Below, piece by piece: positions 1 to 7,754 of a stretch of DNA of 7,754 nt. Both the position numbers and the translations under genes were made by a program. Below the pieces are notes generated by a model that saw nothing but the letters and a program-made list of their open reading frames with translations, had not been told where the DNA came from and did not search any database. Within the stretch, counting starts at the first letter, position 1; every line of letters begins with the position of its first letter. The stretch comes from a virus, in the IMG/VR virus record IMGVR_UViG_3300008250_000003; one strand, written 5' to 3'.

Positions 1-123
1 AATGAAAGCTTCGGCTGTTGCGGCTTCTGTTGGTACTTCTGTTAGTGCTTTCGCTGTTGATCATTCAACTGCAATTACCGCGGCTGGTACTGACGGAACA
101 ACAAACACAAGTGCGGCTGTTGT
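1..123. repeat. Terminal redundancy: identical to 7632-7754 (circular-genome overlap, unit length 7631 bp)
   Basis: Base-by-base comparison of nt 1-123 with 7632-7754 shows identity along the whole overlap. The gene split by the window ends is restored when the ends are joined. Confidence 0.95.
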
Positions 124-2017: not shown

Positions 2018-2416
2018 ATGAAAATTTTAATACTTGTTGTTTTAATGTTTCCTGTTTTTGTGCTTGCTGATACTTATCAGGATGCGGCAGGAACGTCCCA
2101 AATGATTGCAGATGGTTTTGATGATTTATGGGTTTTTCTTTTTACAGATACCCCAAACATGATGCAAAGATTTATGGCTTATTTGTTAGAACTTTGGGTA
2201 CAAATGAAACTCATTGCTTACTACGAATTTATTAAATTATCTTACAACATCGCTAAGGTTATTTTAGAAGATCTCAATGTTATGTCTGTGATTGCTTCTA
2301 ATATGACTTTGCTCCCACAAGATGTAAGACAAATGTTAGTTGAAACGCGCCTTTTTGATGGGGTTAATCTTCTGATTCAAGCTTATGCAACCAAATTTGT
2401 AATGAGGATTGTCTGA
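2018..2416 (+). CDS. pVI/Ace-like small membrane protein (minor coat or assembly protein preceding zot)
   Basis: 132 aa. ATG lies 1 nt after the pIII stop, and its own stop overlaps the zot ATG (TGATG). It has a hydrophobic N-terminus (MKILILVVLMFPVFVLA) and further hydrophobic helices. The position is the same as ace/gVI in Vibrio-type inoviruses. Family assignment is positional. Confidence 0.55.
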   Translation: MKILILVVLMFPVFVLADTYQDAAGTSQMIADGFDDLWVFLFTDTPNMMQRFMAYLLELWVQMKLIAYYEFIKLSYNIAKVILEDLNVMSVIASNMTLLPQDVRQMLVETRLFDGVNLLIQAYATKFVMRIV

Positions 2417-3726
2417 TGTCTGCTTCTATTTTTCATGGTGCACCCGGCTCTTATAAATCATCAAGCGCGGTTTGGTTTGAATTACTTCCTGCTTTACGCG
2501 CTGGTCGTTTGGTTGTAACAAACATTGAAGGCATTCAGGATAAAGAATTTATTGAGCTTGAACTTGGAGAAGAATTTCCTGAAAGCGCGGATATTTGGCG
2601 TTTAAGTTCTCAGACTGATAAAGGGAAATTTCTATGGATGCGTTGGTTTTGGTGGATGCCTGTTGGGGCTTTTATCATTATTGATGAAGTTCAAGATGTA
2701 TTCCCTAATGATTCCACTGTTTTTAAACCTGTTGAACTCGATAGCAAAGGTATAGATTCATTAATAGATAAGTTACCAGAAAAGTACCACCAATATTTTT
2801 ATGAAGTTATTGAAAGTTTTAAACCTCCTGAAGACTATCGAGATGATACAGGTGAACAAATCCTCGATGAAAATGGACATATTATTTATCCCATTACTAT
2901 GCGTGAAGCAAATATGCGCCATAGAAAATATAATTGGGATCTTATCTATTGCACCCCTGAGATTACGGAAATACATAAGCTAGTTAGGTCTGTTTGTCAG
3001 TATGCCTATAAACATGTTTATAAAGAATTTCTTGAATTTATCCCTTACTACAAAAGAAGGACACGTATAAATGAACACACCCCTAAGTCTTCAGGCGAAA
3101 CAATTAAAAAGGGAGACACGACCAAGTGGCGTAAGCTCCCCCTCGAAGTGTTCAAGCTTTACCGAAGCACCTCAACAGACGAAATTACAGAGGGAAGAGG
3201 ACTTAACGCCTTTAAAGACCCTAGTCTTATTTTTGCTCTCGCCCTATTACTTCTTTGTTTCAGTTATGTCACATGGTGGGCGTTTATTAAAGAAGATAGT
3301 AAAAATCGTTTTCTCGAAGAGTCGAATTTACCTCAAGAAACCATTCAAGTTCATTCTAAGAATGCTAGGTCGTCTAGTAGTTCTGTTCCTTCTGCTAACA
3401 GCTTTCAGACTGATAATGTCAACAATCTTCCTTTAAAACTTCCATACGATGCAAGTAAGATTTATTTTACTGGTTATCAAGATGTTATTTTAAATAAGAA
3501 TAAAAAGTATAAAGAGTATTTTTTTACTTTGACTTTGGAAGAGGATGAGTTTTCTTTAAATGATTCCGATCTTCAGTATTTCGGTATTAAGGTTCATTAC
3601 ATTAATGAATGTGTAGTTGAACTATCTAGCGGTAAATATACAAAGCTCGTTTATTGCACCCCCAAGACTATTCACAAGCCATCAAAAGAAGAGTTAGTTT
3701 CTTTTTCTAATAACGAGTCCATCTAA
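2416..3726 (+). CDS. zot: Zot/pI-family phage assembly NTPase (inner-membrane morphogenesis protein)
   Basis: N-terminal Walker A HGAPGSYKSS (aa 7-16) and Walker B-like AFIIIDEVQD (aa 85-94). A single TM helix LIFALALLLLCFSYVTWWAFI (about aa 271-291) is followed by a roughly 145-aa C-terminal domain. Size and position match gene I/zot. Confidence 0.88.
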   Translation: MSASIFHGAPGSYKSSSAVWFELLPALRAGRLVVTNIEGIQDKEFIELELGEEFPESADIWRLSSQTDKGKFLWMRWFWWMPVGAFIIIDEVQDVFPNDSTVFKPVELDSKGIDSLIDKLPEKYHQYFYEVIESFKPPEDYRDDTGEQILDENGHIIYPITMREANMRHRKYNWDLIYCTPEITEIHKLVRSVCQYAYKHVYKEFLEFIPYYKRRTRINEHTPKSSGETIKKGDTTKWRKLPLEVFKLYRSTSTDEITEGRGLNAFKDPSLIFALALLLLCFSYVTWWAFIKEDSKNRFLEESNLPQETIQVHSKNARSSSSSVPSANSFQTDNVNNLPLKLPYDASKIYFTGYQDVILNKNKKYKEYFFTLTLEEDEFSLNDSDLQYFGIKVHYINECVVELSSGKYTKLVYCTPKTIHKPSKEELVSFSNNESI

Positions 3727-3854
3727 TGAAAAAACTTCTTAAACACTATCCTAACGCTTTATTTGTTTCTGGTTTAACTGCTCTTTCAGTTTTTACATAT
3801 CTTAATTTTGATTATGTATATTTTCTTTCTGCTATGAGATTGTATGGTGGTTAA
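3726..3854 (+). CDS. Small hydrophobic protein, 42 aa (not in ORF track), translationally coupled to zot
   Basis: ATG 3726-3728 overlaps the zot stop TAA 3724-3726 (TAATG). Product: MKKLLKHYPNALFVSGLTALSVFTYLNFDYVYFLSAMRLYGG, with a basic N-terminus and one predicted TM segment. Stop TAA 3852-3854 lies inside the left arm of the 3851-3909 hairpin. No strong SD; the call relies on coupling. Confidence 0.4.
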   Translation: MKKLLKHYPNALFVSGLTALSVFTYLNFDYVYFLSAMRLYGG

Positions 3855-3909
3855 TGGTACCAATAAAATACCTTATAACTGCTATAAGGTATAAATAAAG
3901 TACCATTAA
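3851..3909. repeat. Bipartite perfect hairpin/palindrome: 10-bp stem, 7x7 nt bubble, 10-bp stem, 5-nt loop
   Basis: TTAATGGTAC (3851-3860) pairs with GTACCATTAA (3900-3909). ATACCTTATA (3868-3877) pairs with TATAAGGTAT (3883-3892). The unpaired CAATAAA (3861-3867) faces AAATAAA (3893-3899), and the loop is ACTGC (3878-3882). No T-tract follows on either strand. Confidence 0.85.
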
Positions 3910-3912
3910 TGC

Positions 3913-3940
3913 TTGCACTCTTTGTTTGATTTGGTATAAT
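3913..3940 (+). promoter_or_regulatory. Sigma70-type promoter with extended -10 for the accessory two-gene cassette
   Basis: -35 TTGCAC (3913-3918), 16-nt spacer, TG at 3932-3933, -10 TATAAT (3935-3940). AAGGAG (3958-3963) and ATG 3972 follow. Confidence 0.65.
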
Positions 3941-3949
3941 GGTACCAAT
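3937..3949. promoter_or_regulatory. Candidate operator: TAATGGTACCAAT box (core palindrome TGGTACCA) overlapping the -10/+1 of the cassette promoter
   Basis: The exact 13-mer TAATGGTACCAAT occurs at 3852-3864 and 3937-3949, and an inverted copy of TTAATGGTAC lies at 3900-3909. TGGTACCA is a perfect 8-bp palindrome. Confidence 0.5.
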
Positions 3950-3971
3950 TCAAACAAAAGGAGTTTATAAA

Positions 3972-4280
3972 ATGGATAAACGAAGAGAGTTAATATCAGA
4001 ATTTAGAATAATCATTAAAGGCTTACCAAAAGTTCCTGAAGGTTCACCTTTTAAAGAGTATGAAGAGTTAGCAAGGCTTCAGTTCAATGTTACTCAAAAC
4101 TTTTTGTTAGACAATTTACATCATAGTCTTATTGCTAATGATTGTTGTGGTCGTGGTTTGCCTTCTTATCGTTATGCAAGCCTATCTAGATTGCATGGTT
4201 TTAAGATGGATGAAACCTTAGAGGCTGAGATTATGAAAGTAGCTTATTTACGCGTTAACGCATTAAATTTGGAGTCTTAA
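3972..4280 (+). CDS. Hypothetical protein, 102 aa, first gene of the accessory cassette (no family recognised)
   Basis: AAGGAG (3958-3963) lies 8 nt upstream of ATG 3972. The track start ATG 3939 lies inside the predicted -10 box and has no SD. Product: MDKRRELISEFRIIIKGLPKVPEGSPFKEYEELARLQFNVTQNF... It has no TM segment or signal peptide and looks mostly helical by eye. Confidence 0.7.
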   Translation: MDKRRELISEFRIIIKGLPKVPEGSPFKEYEELARLQFNVTQNFLLDNLHHSLIANDCCGRGLPSYRYASLSRLHGFKMDETLEAEIMKVAYLRVNALNLES

Positions 4281-4282
4281 AG

Positions 4283-4537
4283 ATGTTAGTTAAATTTCAA
4301 GCAAACGAAGAGATAGAAAAAAGTATTTTACATATTCAAAAGCGCTTGGGTGAGCAAACAGTTTCAAAAACTGTTCAGCTTGTCTTGGGTCACTACAACG
4401 AGCTTTTAAATAAGTATCAAGAAAAGTGTAATGAGTTCGATGAATTAGATAAATCTTTTAATGATGCTAGAGAGGCTTACTGTAGCAAGCTGAAAGCTGA
4501 AGAGGATTTAGAACTAATATTTTTTGATGAAAACTAA
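4283..4537 (+). CDS. Ribbon-helix-helix-like (CopG/Arc/MetJ-type) DNA-binding protein candidate with an acidic coiled-coil tail, 84 aa
   Basis: GGAG (4271-4274) lies 8 nt upstream of the ATG, which is 2 nt after the upstream stop. The N-terminus fits the RHH pattern: strand LVKFQA, helix NEEIEKSILHIQKRLG, turn, helix TVSKTVQLVLGHY. The C-terminal half is charged and helical. The fold call comes from sequence pattern only. Confidence 0.6.
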   Translation: MLVKFQANEEIEKSILHIQKRLGEQTVSKTVQLVLGHYNELLNKYQEKCNEFDELDKSFNDAREAYCSKLKAEEDLELIFFDEN

Positions 4538-4539
4538 AT

Positions 4540-4633
4540 AGTACCTTTTTAGTTTCCCAGGGTTTAATTGATTGAATTGTTTTAGTACCAAAATCGCTTT
4601 ACCGGTTTTAATCCTGGAAACCTTTTTGGTACT
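4540..4633. repeat. About 94-nt imperfect hairpin with three AGTACC boxes spaced 44 nt apart
   Basis: AGTACC at 4540-4545 and 4584-4589, GGTACT (reverse complement) at 4628-4633. Pairings: 4540-4545/4628-4633; TTTCC 4553-4557/GGAAA 4616-4620; AGG 4559-4561/CCT 4613-4615, plus further A:T pairs. An alternative perfect 10-bp pairing is AGTACCAAAA 4584-4593 with TTTTGGTACT 4624-4633. Confidence 0.65.
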
Positions 4634-4736
4634 GTTTTAAGCATCGCAGATATAAACTTTTTTGTTCTGTGGTTAGCAAATTAGCTTGCGATGTGGGAAG
4701 GGTCGAAACTGTTTAAGCTCTTGGTACATTCGAGGG

Positions 4737-4863
4737 CGCACAGTGTTAAATTGATTTGCTTTAGTGTTTATTGTGCAAAGCTTTTTATTTTTGAAAACCC
4801 CTACCGTCCTGCAAAACTTGTCTTAGTGTTTTTATTAGTGTCGCACTGTAGCAATTTGATAAG
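4737..4863. repeat. Intergenic direct repeats (iteron-like), candidate origin region
   Basis: CGCACAGTGTTAAATTGAT (4737-4755) versus CGCACTGTAGCAATTTGAT (4842-4860) gives 14/19 identity. TTAGTGTTT occurs at 4761-4769 and 4823-4831, with partial TTAGTGT at 4835-4841. Confidence 0.55.
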
Positions 4864-4894
4864 TTTTCTTTTACTATATTTTAGGCAAAAAAAT

Positions 4895-4923
4895 GGGTTG
4901 AACGTCTACCAAACATTCAACCC
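4895..4923. repeat. Stem-loop upstream of rep (8-bp perfect stem, 13-nt loop)
   Basis: GGGTTGAA (4895-4902) pairs with TTCAACCC (4916-4923). Confidence 0.6.
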
Positions 4924-4972
4924 GTTGTCTTTGCTCCTTAACACCGTCTAAAGCACCAAAGGAACCGACAAA

Positions 4973-6382
4973 ATGAATTATAATGATGCAACTCCCAATT
5001 TACAAGTAAAAGCGCTTTGCTCCTCGACGATGGCGAAGCCTGAGCAAAGAGGAGAGGCGCAAAGCGCCGACCTTCTTGGAAGTACCTACGGAAGTTCTTC
5101 CAACTCTACAAAAATTTCGAAAAAACAAAAAGATAATCTAACTCTTACTAGAAATAACTCCTACTTCTTCCAAGACAACTTGCGTCAAATTATTCATAAC
5201 CACCATGAAAAAGGTTCTGACCATCGTTTGTGTTCCTGCGGTGTTGTACCAACCGAACAATTTATGAAGGTGAAAGGCGAGCAGGGCGTGGCAATTCAAA
5301 GCCCCGTATTTCTTAGGAGAGATAAAACAGGCGCGGCTTTTACTGGTCTAGCAAAATGCGATAACCCCTTCTATTGTCCCGTCTGCGCTCCTGTTCAGTT
5401 GATTGATAAATCTAATGAGATCAAGTCGATTGTTTCTAATTTTTTAGAAGAAAATGAAAACCATACTACGTTGATGGTAACTCAAACTTTTTCTCATTCT
5501 ATAGATGATAAATTAAAGCCACTTATTCAGCTTTTGACTAAGGTTAATGGTTCACTTAAAGCAGGACGTTTCAGAAAAGATTTAGAGGCTAATTTTGGTT
5601 TTTTTAGTGCTATTCGTGCAATTGAATCAACGTATTCTGACGTTCACGGATGGCACCCACATTTACATGAAATTTGGTTTTTTAAGAAAAAATTAACTGT
5701 TTCAGATGTATTAAATTTAAAAGATGTTTTATTTAAAAAGTACGTTACTTTACTAGAAAAAAAAGGCTATTCCGCATCTGCTGAAAGAGGTATAGATATC
5801 TCATTTACTACCACTGAAGGTACAGAGGTTATTAAGTATTCTACTAGTACATTAATGCCAACTGATAAGACTTTAGTTGTTAGTTCTTCAGCGTCTGCGG
5901 CTCTTTATGTATCTAAGTTTGATAAAGAATTAACCTTTGAATTTACAAAAATACAGAAACTAAAAAACCTTAGCTTTTTCGGTTTACTTGCTCGTTATTC
6001 TTATGAAAATAATACGCATGATCGTTTGCTGATTATTGAATTTGTTAATGCTGTTTTTCGTCAACGTAGAATCTTTGTCCCTAAGCAATTAAAAGCATAT
6101 ATTTCAGATGTTGAAACTGTTGAAAATCTTGATAATGAAAGACCTGTAATTTTTGAATTCACTAGAAAAGAATGGCTACAAGTTTGTTTTAGAAAACAAC
6201 GTCAATCTATTATTTCTATTGCTAATAATAAAGCCTATACGGATGAAATGGTTTGTAAGTTTGTTCGCGCTTTACTTGACCAGCCGCATGTAATTATTCC
6301 GCCTGATGAATATAAATTTTTGAACCAAAGAAGGGTTCGAGACATTAGCGAGTGGGATTGGACTTTTAATAATGCTGCTTAA
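4973..6382 (+). CDS. Rolling-circle replication initiator, HUH endonuclease (pC194/Rep_1-like motif order)
   Basis: AAGGAA (4959-4964) lies 8 nt upstream of the ATG. Motif 1-like TLMVTQTF (aa 166-173). HUH motif GWHPHLHEIWFF (HPHLH = aa 228-232, nt 5654-5668). Candidate catalytic Tyr in AALYVSKFDKE (Y312, nt 5906-5908; Y-x-x-K). Cys cluster CSC (aa 87-89) and C129, C135-x-x-C138. Confidence 0.82.
   Translation: MNYNDATPNLQVKALCSSTMAKPEQRGEAQSADLLGSTYGSSSNSTKISKKQKDNLTLTRNNSYFFQDNLRQIIHNHHEKGSDHRLCSCGVVPTEQFMKVKGEQGVAIQSPVFLRRDKTGAAFTGLAKCDNPFYCPVCAPVQLIDKSNEIKSIVSNFLEENENHTTLMVTQTFSHSIDDKLKPLIQLLTKVNGSLKAGRFRKDLEANFGFFSAIRAIESTYSDVHGWHPHLHEIWFFKKKLTVSDVLNLKDVLFKKYVTLLEKKGYSASAERGIDISFTTTEGTEVIKYSTSTLMPTDKTLVVSSSASAALYVSKFDKELTFEFTKIQKLKNLSFFGLLARYSYENNTHDRLLIIEFVNAVFRQRRIFVPKQLKAYISDVETVENLDNERPVIFEFTRKEWLQVCFRKQRQSIISIANNKAYTDEMVCKFVRALLDQPHVIIPPDEYKFLNQRRVRDISEWDWTFNNAA
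5012..5103. repeat. GC-rich cluster of overlapping inverted repeats inside the 5' end of rep
   Basis: GCGCTTTGC (5012-5020) pairs with GCAAAGCGC (5059-5067). The mutually exclusive alternative is CTTTGCTC (5015-5022) with GAGCAAAG (5042-5049). TTGGAAG (5076-5082) pairs with CTTCCAA (5097-5103). CTTTGCTCCT also occurs upstream of rep at 4929-4938. Confidence 0.7.
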
Positions 6383-6518: not shown

Positions 6519-6698
6519 TCATTTTTCAGTGACTTCTTTTTTAGTAATGTTTGATTTCGCATTGTCGATAAATTCCAAAAGTTCGTTTATTAACTCACTA
6601 ACGGTAACTTTCCTTTGAAGCTGTGCCGCTAGTTCCCTTGATGTCTGCTCTAATGTTGCCGCGTCTGCTAGTCGTGCTCTTATGCTTTTAGTTTTCAT
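6519..6698 (-). CDS. Small ribbon-helix-helix-like regulator, 59 aa (candidate phage repressor; not in ORF track)
   Basis: Minus-strand ATG is the complement of 6696-6698, with GAGG (complement of 6707-6710) 8 nt upstream. Stop TGA is the complement of 6519-6521. Product: MKTKSIRARLADAATLEQTSRELAAQLQRKVTVSELINELLEFIDNAKSNITKKEVTEK. Strand KSIRARL plus two helices, with the VTVSELINELL helix typical of RHH helix 2. It is the only credible minus-strand gene and is divergent from the 6756 promoter. Confidence 0.6.
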   Translation of the reverse strand: MKTKSIRARLADAATLEQTSRELAAQLQRKVTVSELINELLEFIDNAKSNITKKEVTEK

Positions 6699-7608: not shown

Positions 7609-7754
7609 ATGAAAATTTTTAAATCTTGGAAAATGAAAGCTTCGGCTGTTGCGGCTTCTGTTGGTACTTCTGTTAGTGCTTTCGCTGTTGATCATTCAAC
7701 TGCAATTACCGCGGCTGGTACTGACGGAACAACAAACACAAGTGCGGCTGTTGT
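7609..7754 (+). CDS. Major coat protein (pVIII-type), 5' part; continues at nt 124-190 of the circular unit
   Basis: AAGGGA (7597-7602) lies 6 nt upstream of ATG 7609. The reading frame is continuous with the ORF at 2-190. An internal ATG at 7633 (= nt 2) is an alternative start and would give an 18-aa signal peptide. Confidence 0.85.
   Translation, partial: MKIFKSWKMKASAVAASVGTSVSAFAVDHSTAITAAGTDGTTNTSAAV
7632..7754. repeat. Terminal redundancy: identical to 1-123
   Basis: See the 1-123 feature. Confidence 0.95.

What the first reader, a model, noticed from the sequence alone, without database searches (positions are those of the whole stretch)
3913..4537. Autonomous two-gene cassette (102 aa of unknown family plus an 84-aa RHH-like protein) in the ctxAB-equivalent cargo slot
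Two tightly linked genes (2-nt gap, each with a strong SD) sit just after the morphogenesis genes and before the origin-like intergenic region. They have their own near-consensus promoter (TTGCAC-16-TGnTATAAT). A perfect TGGTACCA palindrome covers its -10/+1, and the same 13-mer box recurs 85 nt upstream. In CTXphi this slot carries ctxAB, and in other inoviruses it is where cargo or regulatory genes vary. The second protein reads as ribbon-helix-helix with an acidic coiled-coil tail, and I cannot place the first in any family. A small effector followed by an autoregulating RHH partner resembles reverse-order toxin-antitoxin modules (BrnT/BrnA-type organisation). It would also fit a lysogeny or superinfection-immunity switch, or an anti-defence or host-manipulation module. 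The function is open, and this is the best candidate for an undescribed system in the window.
Basis: partly seen in the sequence, partly recalled or inferred. Interest (0 to 1): 0.75.

Follow-up and report, generated by a model that had tools for sequence, protein, structure and literature searches.

The report
Phage regulator module carrying inserted cargo
In this small filamentous-phage genome the two linked genes are not a toxin-antitoxin pair: the second looks like a conserved self-repressing DNA-binding regulator with its own array of binding boxes, and the first is an unrelated passenger gene of unknown function inserted between that regulator and its promoter.

Summary
Comparison with eight related uncultured inovirus lineages changes the interpretation.

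The conserved unit has three parts:
- an array of TGGTACCA-type boxes spaced 41-44 bp apart;
- a promoter whose -10 is fused to the last box (TAWAATGGTACCA);
- a gene for an 84-89 aa protein with an invariant MLVK N-terminus, a ribbon-helix-helix (RHH)-like helix pattern and a long coiled-coil tail.

In six lineages this gene follows the promoter directly. Only the window (102-aa gene) and one relative (a 166-aa RNA-polymerase alpha-CTD-like gene) have a gene inserted in between.

The 102-aa protein belongs to a tiny unannotated family (motif DCxGxGLP). Elsewhere it is a stand-alone gene in conjugative-element or prophage islands of marine Gammaproteobacteria, and never sits beside an 84-aa homologue.

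Contigs that share the same origin hairpin but lack the regulator gene also lack the box arrays.

Best reading: an autorepressing RHH-like regulator, working like CopG or Mnt, that gates a variable cargo slot. It may also tune rep and the origin together with a predicted antisense RNA. The toxin-antitoxin reading is not supported. RHH membership is not proven by sequence. This is a new variant of a known kind, of moderate interest.

The parts
3726..3854 (+). 42-aa membrane ORF overlapping the Zot stop; upstream boundary of the module.
   Evidence: Positional counterparts of 42-51 aa are present in L002, L038 and L042.
3852..3864 (.). Box U1, TAATGGTACCAAT (palindromic core TGGTACCA).
   Evidence: It aligns with box 1 of L002, L038 and L042.
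3868..3892 (.). Inner hairpin ATACCTTATA-actgc-TATAAGGTAT, the core of a long ssDNA hairpin spanning 3850-3910.
   Evidence: I16, I21; the DNA fold of 3846-3962 has z = -7.45. The same 28-nt element is in L001 142-169 at 93% identity.
3897..3909 (.). Box U2 (aaaGTACCATTAA), 43 nt from U1.
3913..3940 (+). Promoter: -35 TTGCAC, 16-nt spacer, extended -10 TGgTATAAT.
   Evidence: Read from the sequence. The architecture TTTACW/TTGCAC-16-TGnTAWAAT is conserved in L002, L038 and L042. L001 has TTGACA-17-TAATAT with a box in the spacer. The consensus scan did not call the window promoter because the -35 matches at only 3 of 6 positions.
3937..3949 (.). Box U3, TAATGGTACCAAT, fused to the -10 and covering the predicted +1. 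It lies inside a 38-bp dyad (3921-3958).
   Evidence: I4. TAWAATGGTACCA is invariant in four aligned lineages.
3972..4280 (+). 102-aa cargo gene of an uncharacterised family with the motif DCxGxGLP(S/A)xxY...F.M.
   Evidence: Seven family members were found in about 15 billion proteins. There are no Pfam, PHROG, PADLOC, NCBIfam or PDB matches. Homologues stand alone in ICE or prophage islands.
4283..4537 (+). 84-aa RHH-like regulator: ribbon MLVKFQAN, helix 9-22, turn GEQTVS, then a long helix 26-81 with an acidic tail.
   Evidence: Model pLDDT is 82. Foldseek hits are only RHH proteins, but with E values of 4-10. Homologues are in L001, L002-4 and L005. Distant homologues are in L038, L042 and L087 (hhalign E 4.9e-5). 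dN/dS is 0.05-0.2.
4537..4636 (.). Downstream box array D1-D3 (GTAC at 4541, 4585 and 4629; 44-nt spacing).
   Evidence: The same three-box array precedes the origin hairpin in L002, L038 and L040; L042 has two of the three boxes there.
4640..4694 (.). Conserved origin-like hairpin AGCATCGCAGATATAAAC...TTAGCTTGCGATG.
   Evidence: It is 90-93% identical in L001 and L038 and is also present in L002. It was found in 8 IMG/VR contigs.
4887..5005 (-). Predicted antisense countertranscript against the rep leader: promoter 5005-4977, RNA about 4970-4887, terminator 4923-4895.
4973..6382 (+). Rep_1-type rolling-circle initiator; the next gene downstream on the same strand.
   Evidence: PF01446, E 1.5e-8. 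No + strand terminator-like site lies between 4537 and 4972.

Best explanation
The region is a portable regulatory module of a small clade of uncultured inoviruses, and in this phage a passenger gene has been inserted into it.

The module has three parts. The first is an array of palindromic TGGTACCA boxes about 43 bp apart, roughly four helical turns, so they lie on one face of the DNA. The second is an extended -10 promoter whose -10 is fused to the last box. The third is a gene for a small protein with an invariant MLVK N-terminal ribbon, two helices in the RHH pattern and a long coiled-coil tail.

Inferred mechanism: dimers of the 84-aa protein read the GTAC cores with their N-terminal beta-ribbon. 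The coiled-coil tails link dimers bound to neighbouring boxes. Occupancy of the box at -10/+1 then shuts off the promoter, which is negative autoregulation.

The 102-aa gene sits between promoter and regulator. It should therefore be made in a pulse when the phage enters a cell without regulator, and then held low.

No terminator-like site separates the cassette from rep, and a second three-box array lies 11 nt from the origin hairpin. The regulator probably also tunes rep transcription or origin use. It would do so together with a predicted antisense RNA against the rep leader, a circuit that works like CopG plus RNAII of rolling-circle plasmid pMV158.

The 102-aa protein is a stand-alone accessory protein shared with conjugative elements and prophages. 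Its function is unknown; host manipulation or anti-defence is a guess from its neighbourhoods.

Shown: the sequence anatomy, the conservation, the co-occurrence and the gene swapping. Inferred: DNA binding, repression, oligomerisation, read-through into rep and the function of the cargo.
For: 1. The 84-aa family recurs at the same place in related inoviruses, with or without an upstream gene.
- L001 and L005 have none.
- L002-4 carry a 166-aa protein with an RNA_pol_A_CTD domain, E 3.9e-10.
- L038, L042 and L087 carry divergent 87-89-aa versions directly after the promoter.
- hhalign of the 84-aa type against the 89-aa type gives E 4.9e-5 and is colinear over residues 1-67.

2. Across seven sequences as low as 19% identical, the invariant residues are M1, L2, K4, E10, R21, T26 and S28. 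These are the ribbon and the N-cap of helix B, which are the DNA-contacting parts of RHH proteins. The GGTACC core of the boxes is the same in all lineages.

3. The boxes are periodic in every lineage.
- Window: 3857, 3900, 3942 and 4541, 4585, 4629.
- L001: 223, 267, 310, 354.
- L002: 201, 244, 285 and 1056, 1110, 1154.
- L005: 905, 948, 989, 1032.
Twelve of the 13 spacings are 41-44 nt. One box always overlaps the promoter.

4. The four contigs that share the origin hairpin but lack the gene (L037, L039, L041, L043) have no box arrays.

5. The module behaves as a swappable unit.
- L002 and L038 are 90% and 97% identical in the flanks, but the interior is exchanged.
- L005 and L043 are 89% identical through Zot, with the module present in one and absent in the other.

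6. The model shows a coil at 1-8, helix 9-22 and helix 26-81, with pLDDT 82. All nine PDB Foldseek hits are RHH proteins (CopG, Arc, TCP), though not significant.

7. The N-terminal 55 codons have dN/dS of 0.05-0.2.

8. The 102-aa family is found in three kinds of setting:
- Shewanella frigidimarina, next to the TraI relaxase, ArdC, TraD and a T4CP;
- a metagenomic island with an integrase, Gp49/HTH_37 and an AcrVA2-like gene;
- a Cocleimonas MAG island of small ORFs with a CI repressor and a DNA methylase.
It has no conserved neighbour.

9. The antisense RNA is supported by several observations.
- The minus-strand promoter TTGTAA-17-TATAAT and a minus-strand terminator are conserved in L001.
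- The minus strand folds at -29.9 and -26.3 kcal/mol (z -4.1 and -4.8), against -19.2 and -15.1 for the plus strand.
- The stem changes between window and L001 are compensatory.

10. In L001 the order is origin hairpin, boxes and promoter, RHH-like gene, antisense-RNA target, rep. This is the same order as the pMV158 origin, copG and repB, as I recall it. CopG is an autorepressor cotranscribed with repB and acts together with RNAII (PMC5717011, PMC4485353).

11. RHH proteins recognise short core tetramer boxes with AT-rich flanks (PMC3413123). Here the core is GTAC and the flanks are A/T-rich.
Against: - No profile method places the protein in an RHH family. Pfam gives nothing even for the N-terminal 48 residues at E up to 10. 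hhalign against Arc, Mnt, CopG, NikR and ParD aligns in the right register but is not significant (E 0.15-0.31).
- The Foldseek hits have E above 1.
- The monomer model cannot show the ribbon.
- The protein is acidic overall (pI 4.8).
- A 43-bp spacing is unlike the contiguous or near-contiguous operators of characterised RHH repressors.
- GGTACC is its own complement, so boxes can also pair as ssDNA hairpins. The window's upstream region folds strongly as ssDNA (z -7.5).
- In the window and L002, 435 nt containing the origin lie between the regulator gene and rep. Co-transcription is therefore unproven, and the simple scan could have missed a rep promoter.
- The window's C-terminal tail has diverged from that of the relatives (dN/dS 0.65-0.97), which could reflect adaptation to the 102-aa protein.
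Confidence: 0.6

Rival explanations
1. Reverse-order type II toxin-antitoxin module: the 102-aa protein is a toxin, and the 84-aa RHH protein is an antitoxin that neutralises it with its acidic tail and autorepresses the operon.
For: - The genes are tightly linked (2-nt gap), the upstream gene is small, and the downstream protein is acidic and RHH-like with an operator over the promoter.
- Toxin-antitoxin pairs, including shuffled partners, are common inovirus cargo (PMC6813254).
- The window's 84-aa C-tail is diverged relative to the homologues.
Against: - The 84-aa family occurs with no partner in six lineages and with an alpha-CTD-like partner in another.
- The 102-aa family occurs alone, followed by a terminator or by unrelated genes. 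That would be lethal for a real toxin.
- There are no toxin or PADLOC matches.
- The 102-aa protein is neutral (pI 6.8), not basic.
Confidence: 0.08
2. Superinfection-immunity or exclusion module: the main role of the regulator is to bind the box arrays next to the origin and promoter of incoming related phages and block their establishment. Autoregulation is secondary.
For: - The module is accessory, present or absent among close relatives.
- A three-box array abuts the origin hairpin.
- Several box-sharing phages co-occur in the same samples.
- Excess CopG in a recipient blocks establishment of pMV158 (PMC5717011).
Against: - In L001 there is no array beside the origin hairpin.
- The phage has a separate divergently transcribed 58-aa RHH-like gene at the classical repressor position.
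- Nothing here tests immunity. This rival overlaps with the best explanation rather than excluding it.
Confidence: 0.15
3. The boxes are structural ssDNA elements (packaging signal or minus-strand origin hairpins). The 84-aa protein is a coiled-coil protein with some other role and does not bind DNA.
For: - Window 3846-3962 folds into two strong ssDNA hairpins (z -7.45).
- The palindromic boxes pair with each other (I16, I19).
- There is no significant RHH match.
- The C-terminal half matches only coiled coils.
Against: - The ssDNA folds of the equivalent regions are not significant in L001 and L002 (z -1.5 and -1.1) and intermediate in L005 (z -3.9).
- The fusion of a box to the -10, the regular 43-nt spacing and the co-occurrence with the MLVK gene are conserved.
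- Contigs with the same origin hairpin but no gene lack the arrays, although they still need packaging and minus-strand origins.
Confidence: 0.1
4. Partition-like system: an RHH centromere-binding protein of the ParR, ParG or omega type, with centromere-like repeat arrays, stabilising the episomal replicative form.
For: - Repeat arrays flank an autoregulated RHH-like gene.
- An omega-like RHH protein next to an unknown ORF has been proposed to act in episome maintenance in inovirus PMBT54 (PMC10534721).
Against: - The genome encodes no ParA- or ParM-type NTPase.
- As I recall, centromere repeats of characterised RHH partition proteins are contiguous, not 43 bp apart.
Confidence: 0.04

Closest known systems
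CopG + RNAII copy-number control of rolling-circle plasmid pMV158 (PMC5717011, PMC4485353)
   Same: - A small RHH-type autorepressor gene lies upstream of rep on the same strand, with a symmetric operator overlapping its promoter.
- A short antisense RNA with a strong terminator hairpin is directed against the rep leader and RBS.
- The replicon is rolling-circle.
- In L001 the order origin, promoter and operator, regulator, antisense target, rep is, as I recall, the pMV158 order.
   Different: - No sequence homology to CopG was detected.
- The protein is twice as long and has a coiled-coil tail.
- The operators are 3-4 boxes 43 bp apart rather than one 13-bp element.
- In the window the origin lies between the regulator and rep, and a cargo gene precedes the regulator.
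- Rep belongs to Rep_1 (PF01446); as I recall, RepB of pMV158 is Rep_2.
Mnt repressor of phage P22 (RHH domain plus C-terminal coiled-coil tetramerisation domain; from my own knowledge)
   Same: About 83 aa, with an N-terminal RHH domain followed by a C-terminal helical oligomerisation domain; a phage-encoded repressor acting on a symmetric operator.
   Different: hhalign is not significant. Mnt binds one 17-21-bp operator as a tetramer, not a periodic array.
ORF12/ORF13 of Pseudomonas inovirus PMBT54 (PMC10534721)
   Same: An unknown ORF plus an omega-like RHH repressor gene in an inovirus, proposed to control episome maintenance or copy number.
   Different: ORF13 is recognisably omega-like, whereas the protein here matches no RHH family. 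The relatedness and operators of that pair were not compared here.
Variable cargo position after pI/Zot in Vibrio inoviruses (ctxAB in CTXphi from my own knowledge; Vpf497 in VfO3K6; Doc-like gene in a V. cyclitrophicus phage)
   Same: The same genome position carries non-core, lineage-specific genes.
   Different: Here the cargo is inserted inside a regulator's own transcription unit, between the promoter-operator and the regulator gene, rather than being an independent unit.
Type II toxin-antitoxin cargo of inoviruses (Roux et al. 2019, PMC6813254; PfiAT of Pf4, PMC12328805)
   Same: A two-gene, tightly linked arrangement that includes a small acidic RHH-like protein with an operator.
   Different: Neither gene co-occurs consistently with the other, and there is no toxin homology.

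Membership tests
Ribbon-helix-helix (Arc/MetJ/CopG) superfamily - 84-aa protein | Significant sequence or profile match to an RHH family. | tested here: not met
   - Pfam gives no RHH hit for the full protein or for residues 1-48 at E up to 10.
- PDB sequence and profile searches return only coiled coils.
- hhalign against Arc, Mnt, CopG, NikR and ParD gives E 0.15-0.31 in the correct register.
Ribbon-helix-helix (Arc/MetJ/CopG) superfamily - 84-aa protein | N-terminal beta-strand, helix A, a G-x-(S/T) turn, then helix B. | tested here: inconclusive
   - The model has a coil at 1-8, helix 9-22, the turn G23-E-Q-T26-V-S28 and a helix from residue 26.
- A monomer model cannot form the ribbon.
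- All nine PDB Foldseek hits are RHH proteins, but with E of 4-10.
Ribbon-helix-helix (Arc/MetJ/CopG) superfamily - 84-aa protein | The dimer inserts an antiparallel ribbon into the major groove of short repeated boxes. | not testable with these tools
   Indirect support only. The ribbon (M1, L2, K4) and the helix-B cap (T26, S28) are invariant, the GTAC boxes are invariant, and the two co-occur.
Type II toxin-antitoxin, reverse order (BrnT/BrnA- or HigBA-like) | The two genes co-occur as a conserved pair. | tested here: not met
   Each family is found without the other in every other locus examined.
Type II toxin-antitoxin, reverse order (BrnT/BrnA- or HigBA-like) | The upstream protein belongs to a toxin fold or family. 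| tested here: not met
   There are no Pfam, PHROG, PADLOC, NCBIfam or PDB matches. The structure model is unusable (pLDDT 43).
Type II toxin-antitoxin, reverse order (BrnT/BrnA- or HigBA-like) | Toxicity that is relieved by the partner. | not testable with these tools
   This needs expression experiments.
CopG/RNAII-type replication control of rolling-circle replicons | Autorepressor gene upstream of rep in one transcription unit. | tested here: inconclusive
   - In L001 the regulator stop lies 135 nt before the rep ATG, and the scan finds no + promoter in between.
- In the window the gap is 435 nt, includes the origin, and has no + strand terminator-like site.
- There are no transcript data.
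CopG/RNAII-type replication control of rolling-circle replicons | Antisense RNA complementary to the rep leader. | tested here: met
   Computational evidence only.
- A conserved minus-strand promoter and terminator are present.
- The fold is strand-specific (z -4.1 and -4.8) with compensatory stem changes.
- There is no Rfam family match.
CopG/RNAII-type replication control of rolling-circle replicons | Homology of the repressor to CopG. | tested here: not met
Inovirus post-pI cargo slot (ctxAB-equivalent) | Gene content at this position varies among related phages while the flanks are conserved. | tested here: met
   - The position holds the 102-aa gene, the 166-aa alpha-CTD-like gene, or nothing.
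- L002 and L038 have flanks 90% and 97% identical with the interior exchanged.
- Cultured relatives are shown.

The most novel reading that the evidence does not exclude
The gap between the box-gated promoter and the regulator gene is a dedicated expression slot. Inoviruses load it with host-manipulating genes, here the DCxGxGLP protein and in a sister phage an RNA-polymerase alpha-CTD mimic, so that these genes fire as a short pulse on cell entry. On this reading the 102-aa family would be a new anti-defence or host-takeover effector shared by inoviruses, conjugative elements and prophages.
Probability: 0.15. Interest if true: 0.7.

Novelty: new variant of a known kind. Interest (0 to 1): 0.45.

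Why it matters
Inoviruses are widespread, yet how most of them control replication and cargo expression is unknown outside a few model phages.

If the model holds, it gives three things. The first is a compact, portable operator-plus-repressor unit with an unusual four-helical-turn operator spacing. The second is an inovirus whose replication control looks like that of a rolling-circle plasmid, combining a repressor with an antisense RNA. The third is a defined position where passenger genes are plugged in under that control.

It also flags two untested small proteins as candidates for host manipulation. One is the DCxGxGLP family shared with conjugative elements. The other is a phage-borne alpha-CTD-like protein.

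It removes a tempting but unsupported toxin-antitoxin annotation.

Tried and rejected
- DNA and protein searches of GenBank phages and PLSDB plasmids with the whole window and with both proteins found nothing.
- Peptide-pattern scans for the 84-aa family found nothing in IMG/VR or in GTDB genomes. The metagenome scan only re-found L002.
- A scan of GTDB genomes with the Rep alignment gave only distant Reps (21-38% identity) in unrelated phyla, so no host could be assigned. The nearest cultured relatives by Zot are Vibrio f237-type phages at 32% identity.
- The single-sequence AlphaFold model of the 102-aa protein was unusable (pLDDT 43). Both prediction slots were used before the family alignment existed, so no fold search was possible for it.
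- BLASTP of the 102-aa protein against the 166-aa alpha-CTD-like cargo found no similarity.
- Rfam found nothing in the window.
- The 86-aa ORF at 4691-4951 in the intergenic region is treated as spurious because it overlaps conserved non-coding elements.
- L086, from the box-pattern scan, sits among non-inovirus genes (HTH and P-loop-like ORFs) and was set aside as a chance match without further study.
- The idea that the promoter hairpin acts as an ssDNA promoter, like Frpo of conjugative leading regions, was rejected. The packaged plus strand is the sense strand for these genes.
Full report
**What the window is.** The window is a complete circular inovirus genome of about 7.63 kb. Bases 1-123 repeat 7632-7754, and identical copies with different start points were assembled from four JGI samples. 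The gene order is as follows:
- coat;
- a g3-like gene;
- a g6/Ace-like gene;
- Zot/pI (2416-3726, PF05707, E 8.5e-38);
- a 42-aa membrane ORF;
- the 102-aa and 84-aa genes;
- a 435-nt intergenic region;
- Rep_1-type Rep (4973-6382);
- a divergent 58-aa ORF;
- pV-like and further structural genes.

Nothing similar exists in GenBank phages or PLSDB plasmids. The nearest cultured relatives by Zot are Vibrio f237-type phages at 32% identity.

**Checking the observation.** The -35 matches at only 3 of 6 positions, and the simple consensus scan does not call the promoter.
- a third box at 3900;
- three more boxes after the 84-aa gene, at 4541, 4585 and 4629, ending 11 nt before a conserved origin-like hairpin;
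- the 42-44 nt spacing within each array.

GGTAC is enriched in the window: 19 copies against 5.6 expected, with 0 of 200 shuffles reaching 19.

**The 84-aa protein is the conserved element.** Searches of 5.8 billion proteins gave three relatives. Their contigs are related inoviruses.
- In L001, a circular 6.75-kb genome, and in L005, the homologue has no upstream gene.
- In L002-L004 the upstream gene encodes a 166-aa protein with a genuine RNA-polymerase alpha-CTD domain (PF03118, E 3.9e-10). Its stop overlaps the regulator's start.

A DNA search with the conserved origin hairpin, and another with the box-and-promoter pattern, recovered more inoviruses from IMG/VR: L036, L038, L040, L042 and L087. 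They carry the same box arrays and the same TAAAATGGTACCA promoter. Directly behind the promoter is an 87-89-aa protein that tblastn did not link to the 84-aa protein. That protein is colinear with it by profile comparison (hhalign E 4.9e-5).

Over seven sequences as low as 19% identical, the invariant residues are M1, L2, K4, E10, R21, T26 and S28. Codons 1-55 are under strong purifying selection (dN/dS 0.05-0.2, dS above 1.2). The window's C-terminal tail has diverged.

**Boxes and gene go together.**
- In all lineages the boxes are 41-44 nt apart, apart from single spacings of 54 nt in L002 and 32 nt in L087, and one box overlaps the promoter. It is fused to the -10 in the window, L002, L005, L038 and L042, and lies in the spacer in L001.
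- Four contigs that share the origin hairpin but have no MLVK-type gene (L037, L039, L041, L043) have no arrays.
- L002 and L038 are 90% and 97% identical in the flanks, while the interior is exchanged: 166 aa plus 82 aa against 89 aa.
- L005 and L043 are 89% identical through Zot, with the module present in one and absent in the other.
- In L001 the whole module sits at a different place in the intergenic region, directly upstream of rep.

The module is therefore portable and self-contained.

**Is it ribbon-helix-helix?** Several things fit. The AlphaFold model (pLDDT 82) has a coil at 1-8, helix 9-22, the turn GEQTVS and a long helix 26-81. All nine PDB Foldseek hits are RHH proteins (CopG, Arc, TCP), but with E values of 4-10. 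BFVD hits include RHH, NikA and repressor entries, equally weak. The invariant residues coincide with the ribbon and the helix-B cap. The palindromic GTAC core with A/T-rich flanks fits what is known of RHH sites (PMC3413123).

Against this, Pfam, PDB sequence and profile searches and hhalign against five classical RHH proteins are not significant. My conclusion is that the protein works like an RHH repressor, but membership is unproven.

**The 102-aa protein is cargo.** An exhaustive phmmer search and a profile search found six relatives in about 15 billion proteins. They share the motif DCxGxGLP(S/A)xxY...F.M. Their settings are:
- Shewanella frigidimarina, just after a TraI relaxase and next to ArdC, TraD, topoisomerase III and a T4CP;
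- a metagenomic island with an integrase, a Gp49/HTH_37 pair and an AcrVA2-like gene;
- a Cocleimonas MAG island of small same-strand ORFs with a CI repressor and a DNA methylase;
- short contigs where the gene is bracketed by terminators.

No neighbour is conserved, and none resembles the 84-aa protein. There is no match in Pfam, PHROGs, PADLOC, NCBIfam or PDB. The single-sequence model is unusable. A toxin that regularly occurs without an antitoxin is implausible.

**Wider circuit.** No + strand terminator-like site lies between the cassette and rep. Inside the first codons of rep there is a minus-strand promoter, TTGTAA-17-TATAAT, and 50 nt further on a strong minus-strand terminator. Both are conserved in L001.

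The ~84-nt RNA folds into two hairpins far better on the minus strand than on the plus strand: -29.9 against -19.2 kcal/mol in the window, and -26.3 against -15.1 in L001 (z -4.1 and -4.8). The stem changes are compensatory, and wobble pairs form only on the minus strand. Rfam has no match.

Together with the regulator, this resembles the CopG-plus-RNAII control of pMV158 (PMC5717011, PMC4485353).

**Verdict.** The best reading (about 0.6) is an autorepressing RHH-like regulator with a periodic operator array that gates a variable cargo slot and probably feeds into rep and origin control. The toxin-antitoxin reading is about 0.08. The other rivals, which partly overlap the main reading, are an immunity function, ssDNA structural elements and partition. 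This is a new variant of a known kind, with interest 0.45.

Noticed in passing
window 4887-5005 (minus strand); L001 672-788: A predicted ~84-nt countertranscript lies antisense to the rep leader and RBS. It has a conserved promoter inside the first rep codons, a strong minus-strand terminator, a strand-specific two-hairpin fold and compensatory stem changes. It matches no Rfam family.
   Followed up: partly
L002 314-814 (also L003, L004): A sister phage carries, in the same slot, a 166-aa protein whose C-terminal 60 residues are an RNA-polymerase alpha-subunit CTD domain (PF03118, E 3.9e-10). Its stop overlaps the regulator's start. It may be a transcription decoy or mimic.
   Followed up: partly
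window 6519-6698 (minus strand): A divergently transcribed 58-aa ORF between rep and the pV-like gene has an RHH-like pattern by eye (KSIRARL...VTVSELINELL). It is conserved in L001, L036, L038 and L040 at 54-70% identity. Its promoter region contains no GTAC box, so it is probably a second regulator with a different operator.
   Followed up: partly
window 1-123 and 7632-7754: A 123-nt terminal redundancy comes from assembling a circular genome. The true length is about 7631 nt, and the coat gene at the window start is the 3' part of a 70-aa gene.
   Followed up: yes
window 3850-3910 and 3921-3958: Two strong ssDNA hairpins are predicted (fold z -7.45). The first is a 60-nt hairpin made of boxes U1 and U2 around an inner hairpin that is also present in L001 142-169. 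The second is a 38-bp dyad enclosing the -10. They may be a packaging signal or a minus-strand origin in this phage. Relatives do not show comparable folds.
   Followed up: partly
window 4640-4694; L001 15-75; L002 1173-1225; L036-L043: A conserved origin-like hairpin (AGCATCGCAGATATAAAC...TTAGCTTGCGATG) is shared by inoviruses whose Rep proteins are only ~25-29% identical and whose Zot proteins fall into two groups. This suggests a shared origin cassette.
   Followed up: partly
L036 (14,310 nt): This IMG/VR contig holds two different but related inovirus genomes in tandem, one L038-like and one L042-like. Each has its own box arrays, regulator, Zot and Rep. It could be a tandem prophage, a co-integrate or a chimeric assembly.
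   Followed up: no
L005 1040-1246: The regulator homologue is cut to 68 aa, and the sequence beyond residue 56 is unrelated to the other phages. A rearrangement or assembly junction is likely.
   Followed up: partly
L087 5888-6541 (minus strand): In this inovirus a 217-aa ORF of unknown function follows the regulator gene. Cargo can therefore also sit downstream of the regulator.
   Followed up: no
window 3726-3854: A 42-aa single-pass membrane ORF overlaps the Zot stop (ATGA). Positional counterparts of 42-51 aa exist in L002, L038 and L042. No family match is significant.
   Followed up: no
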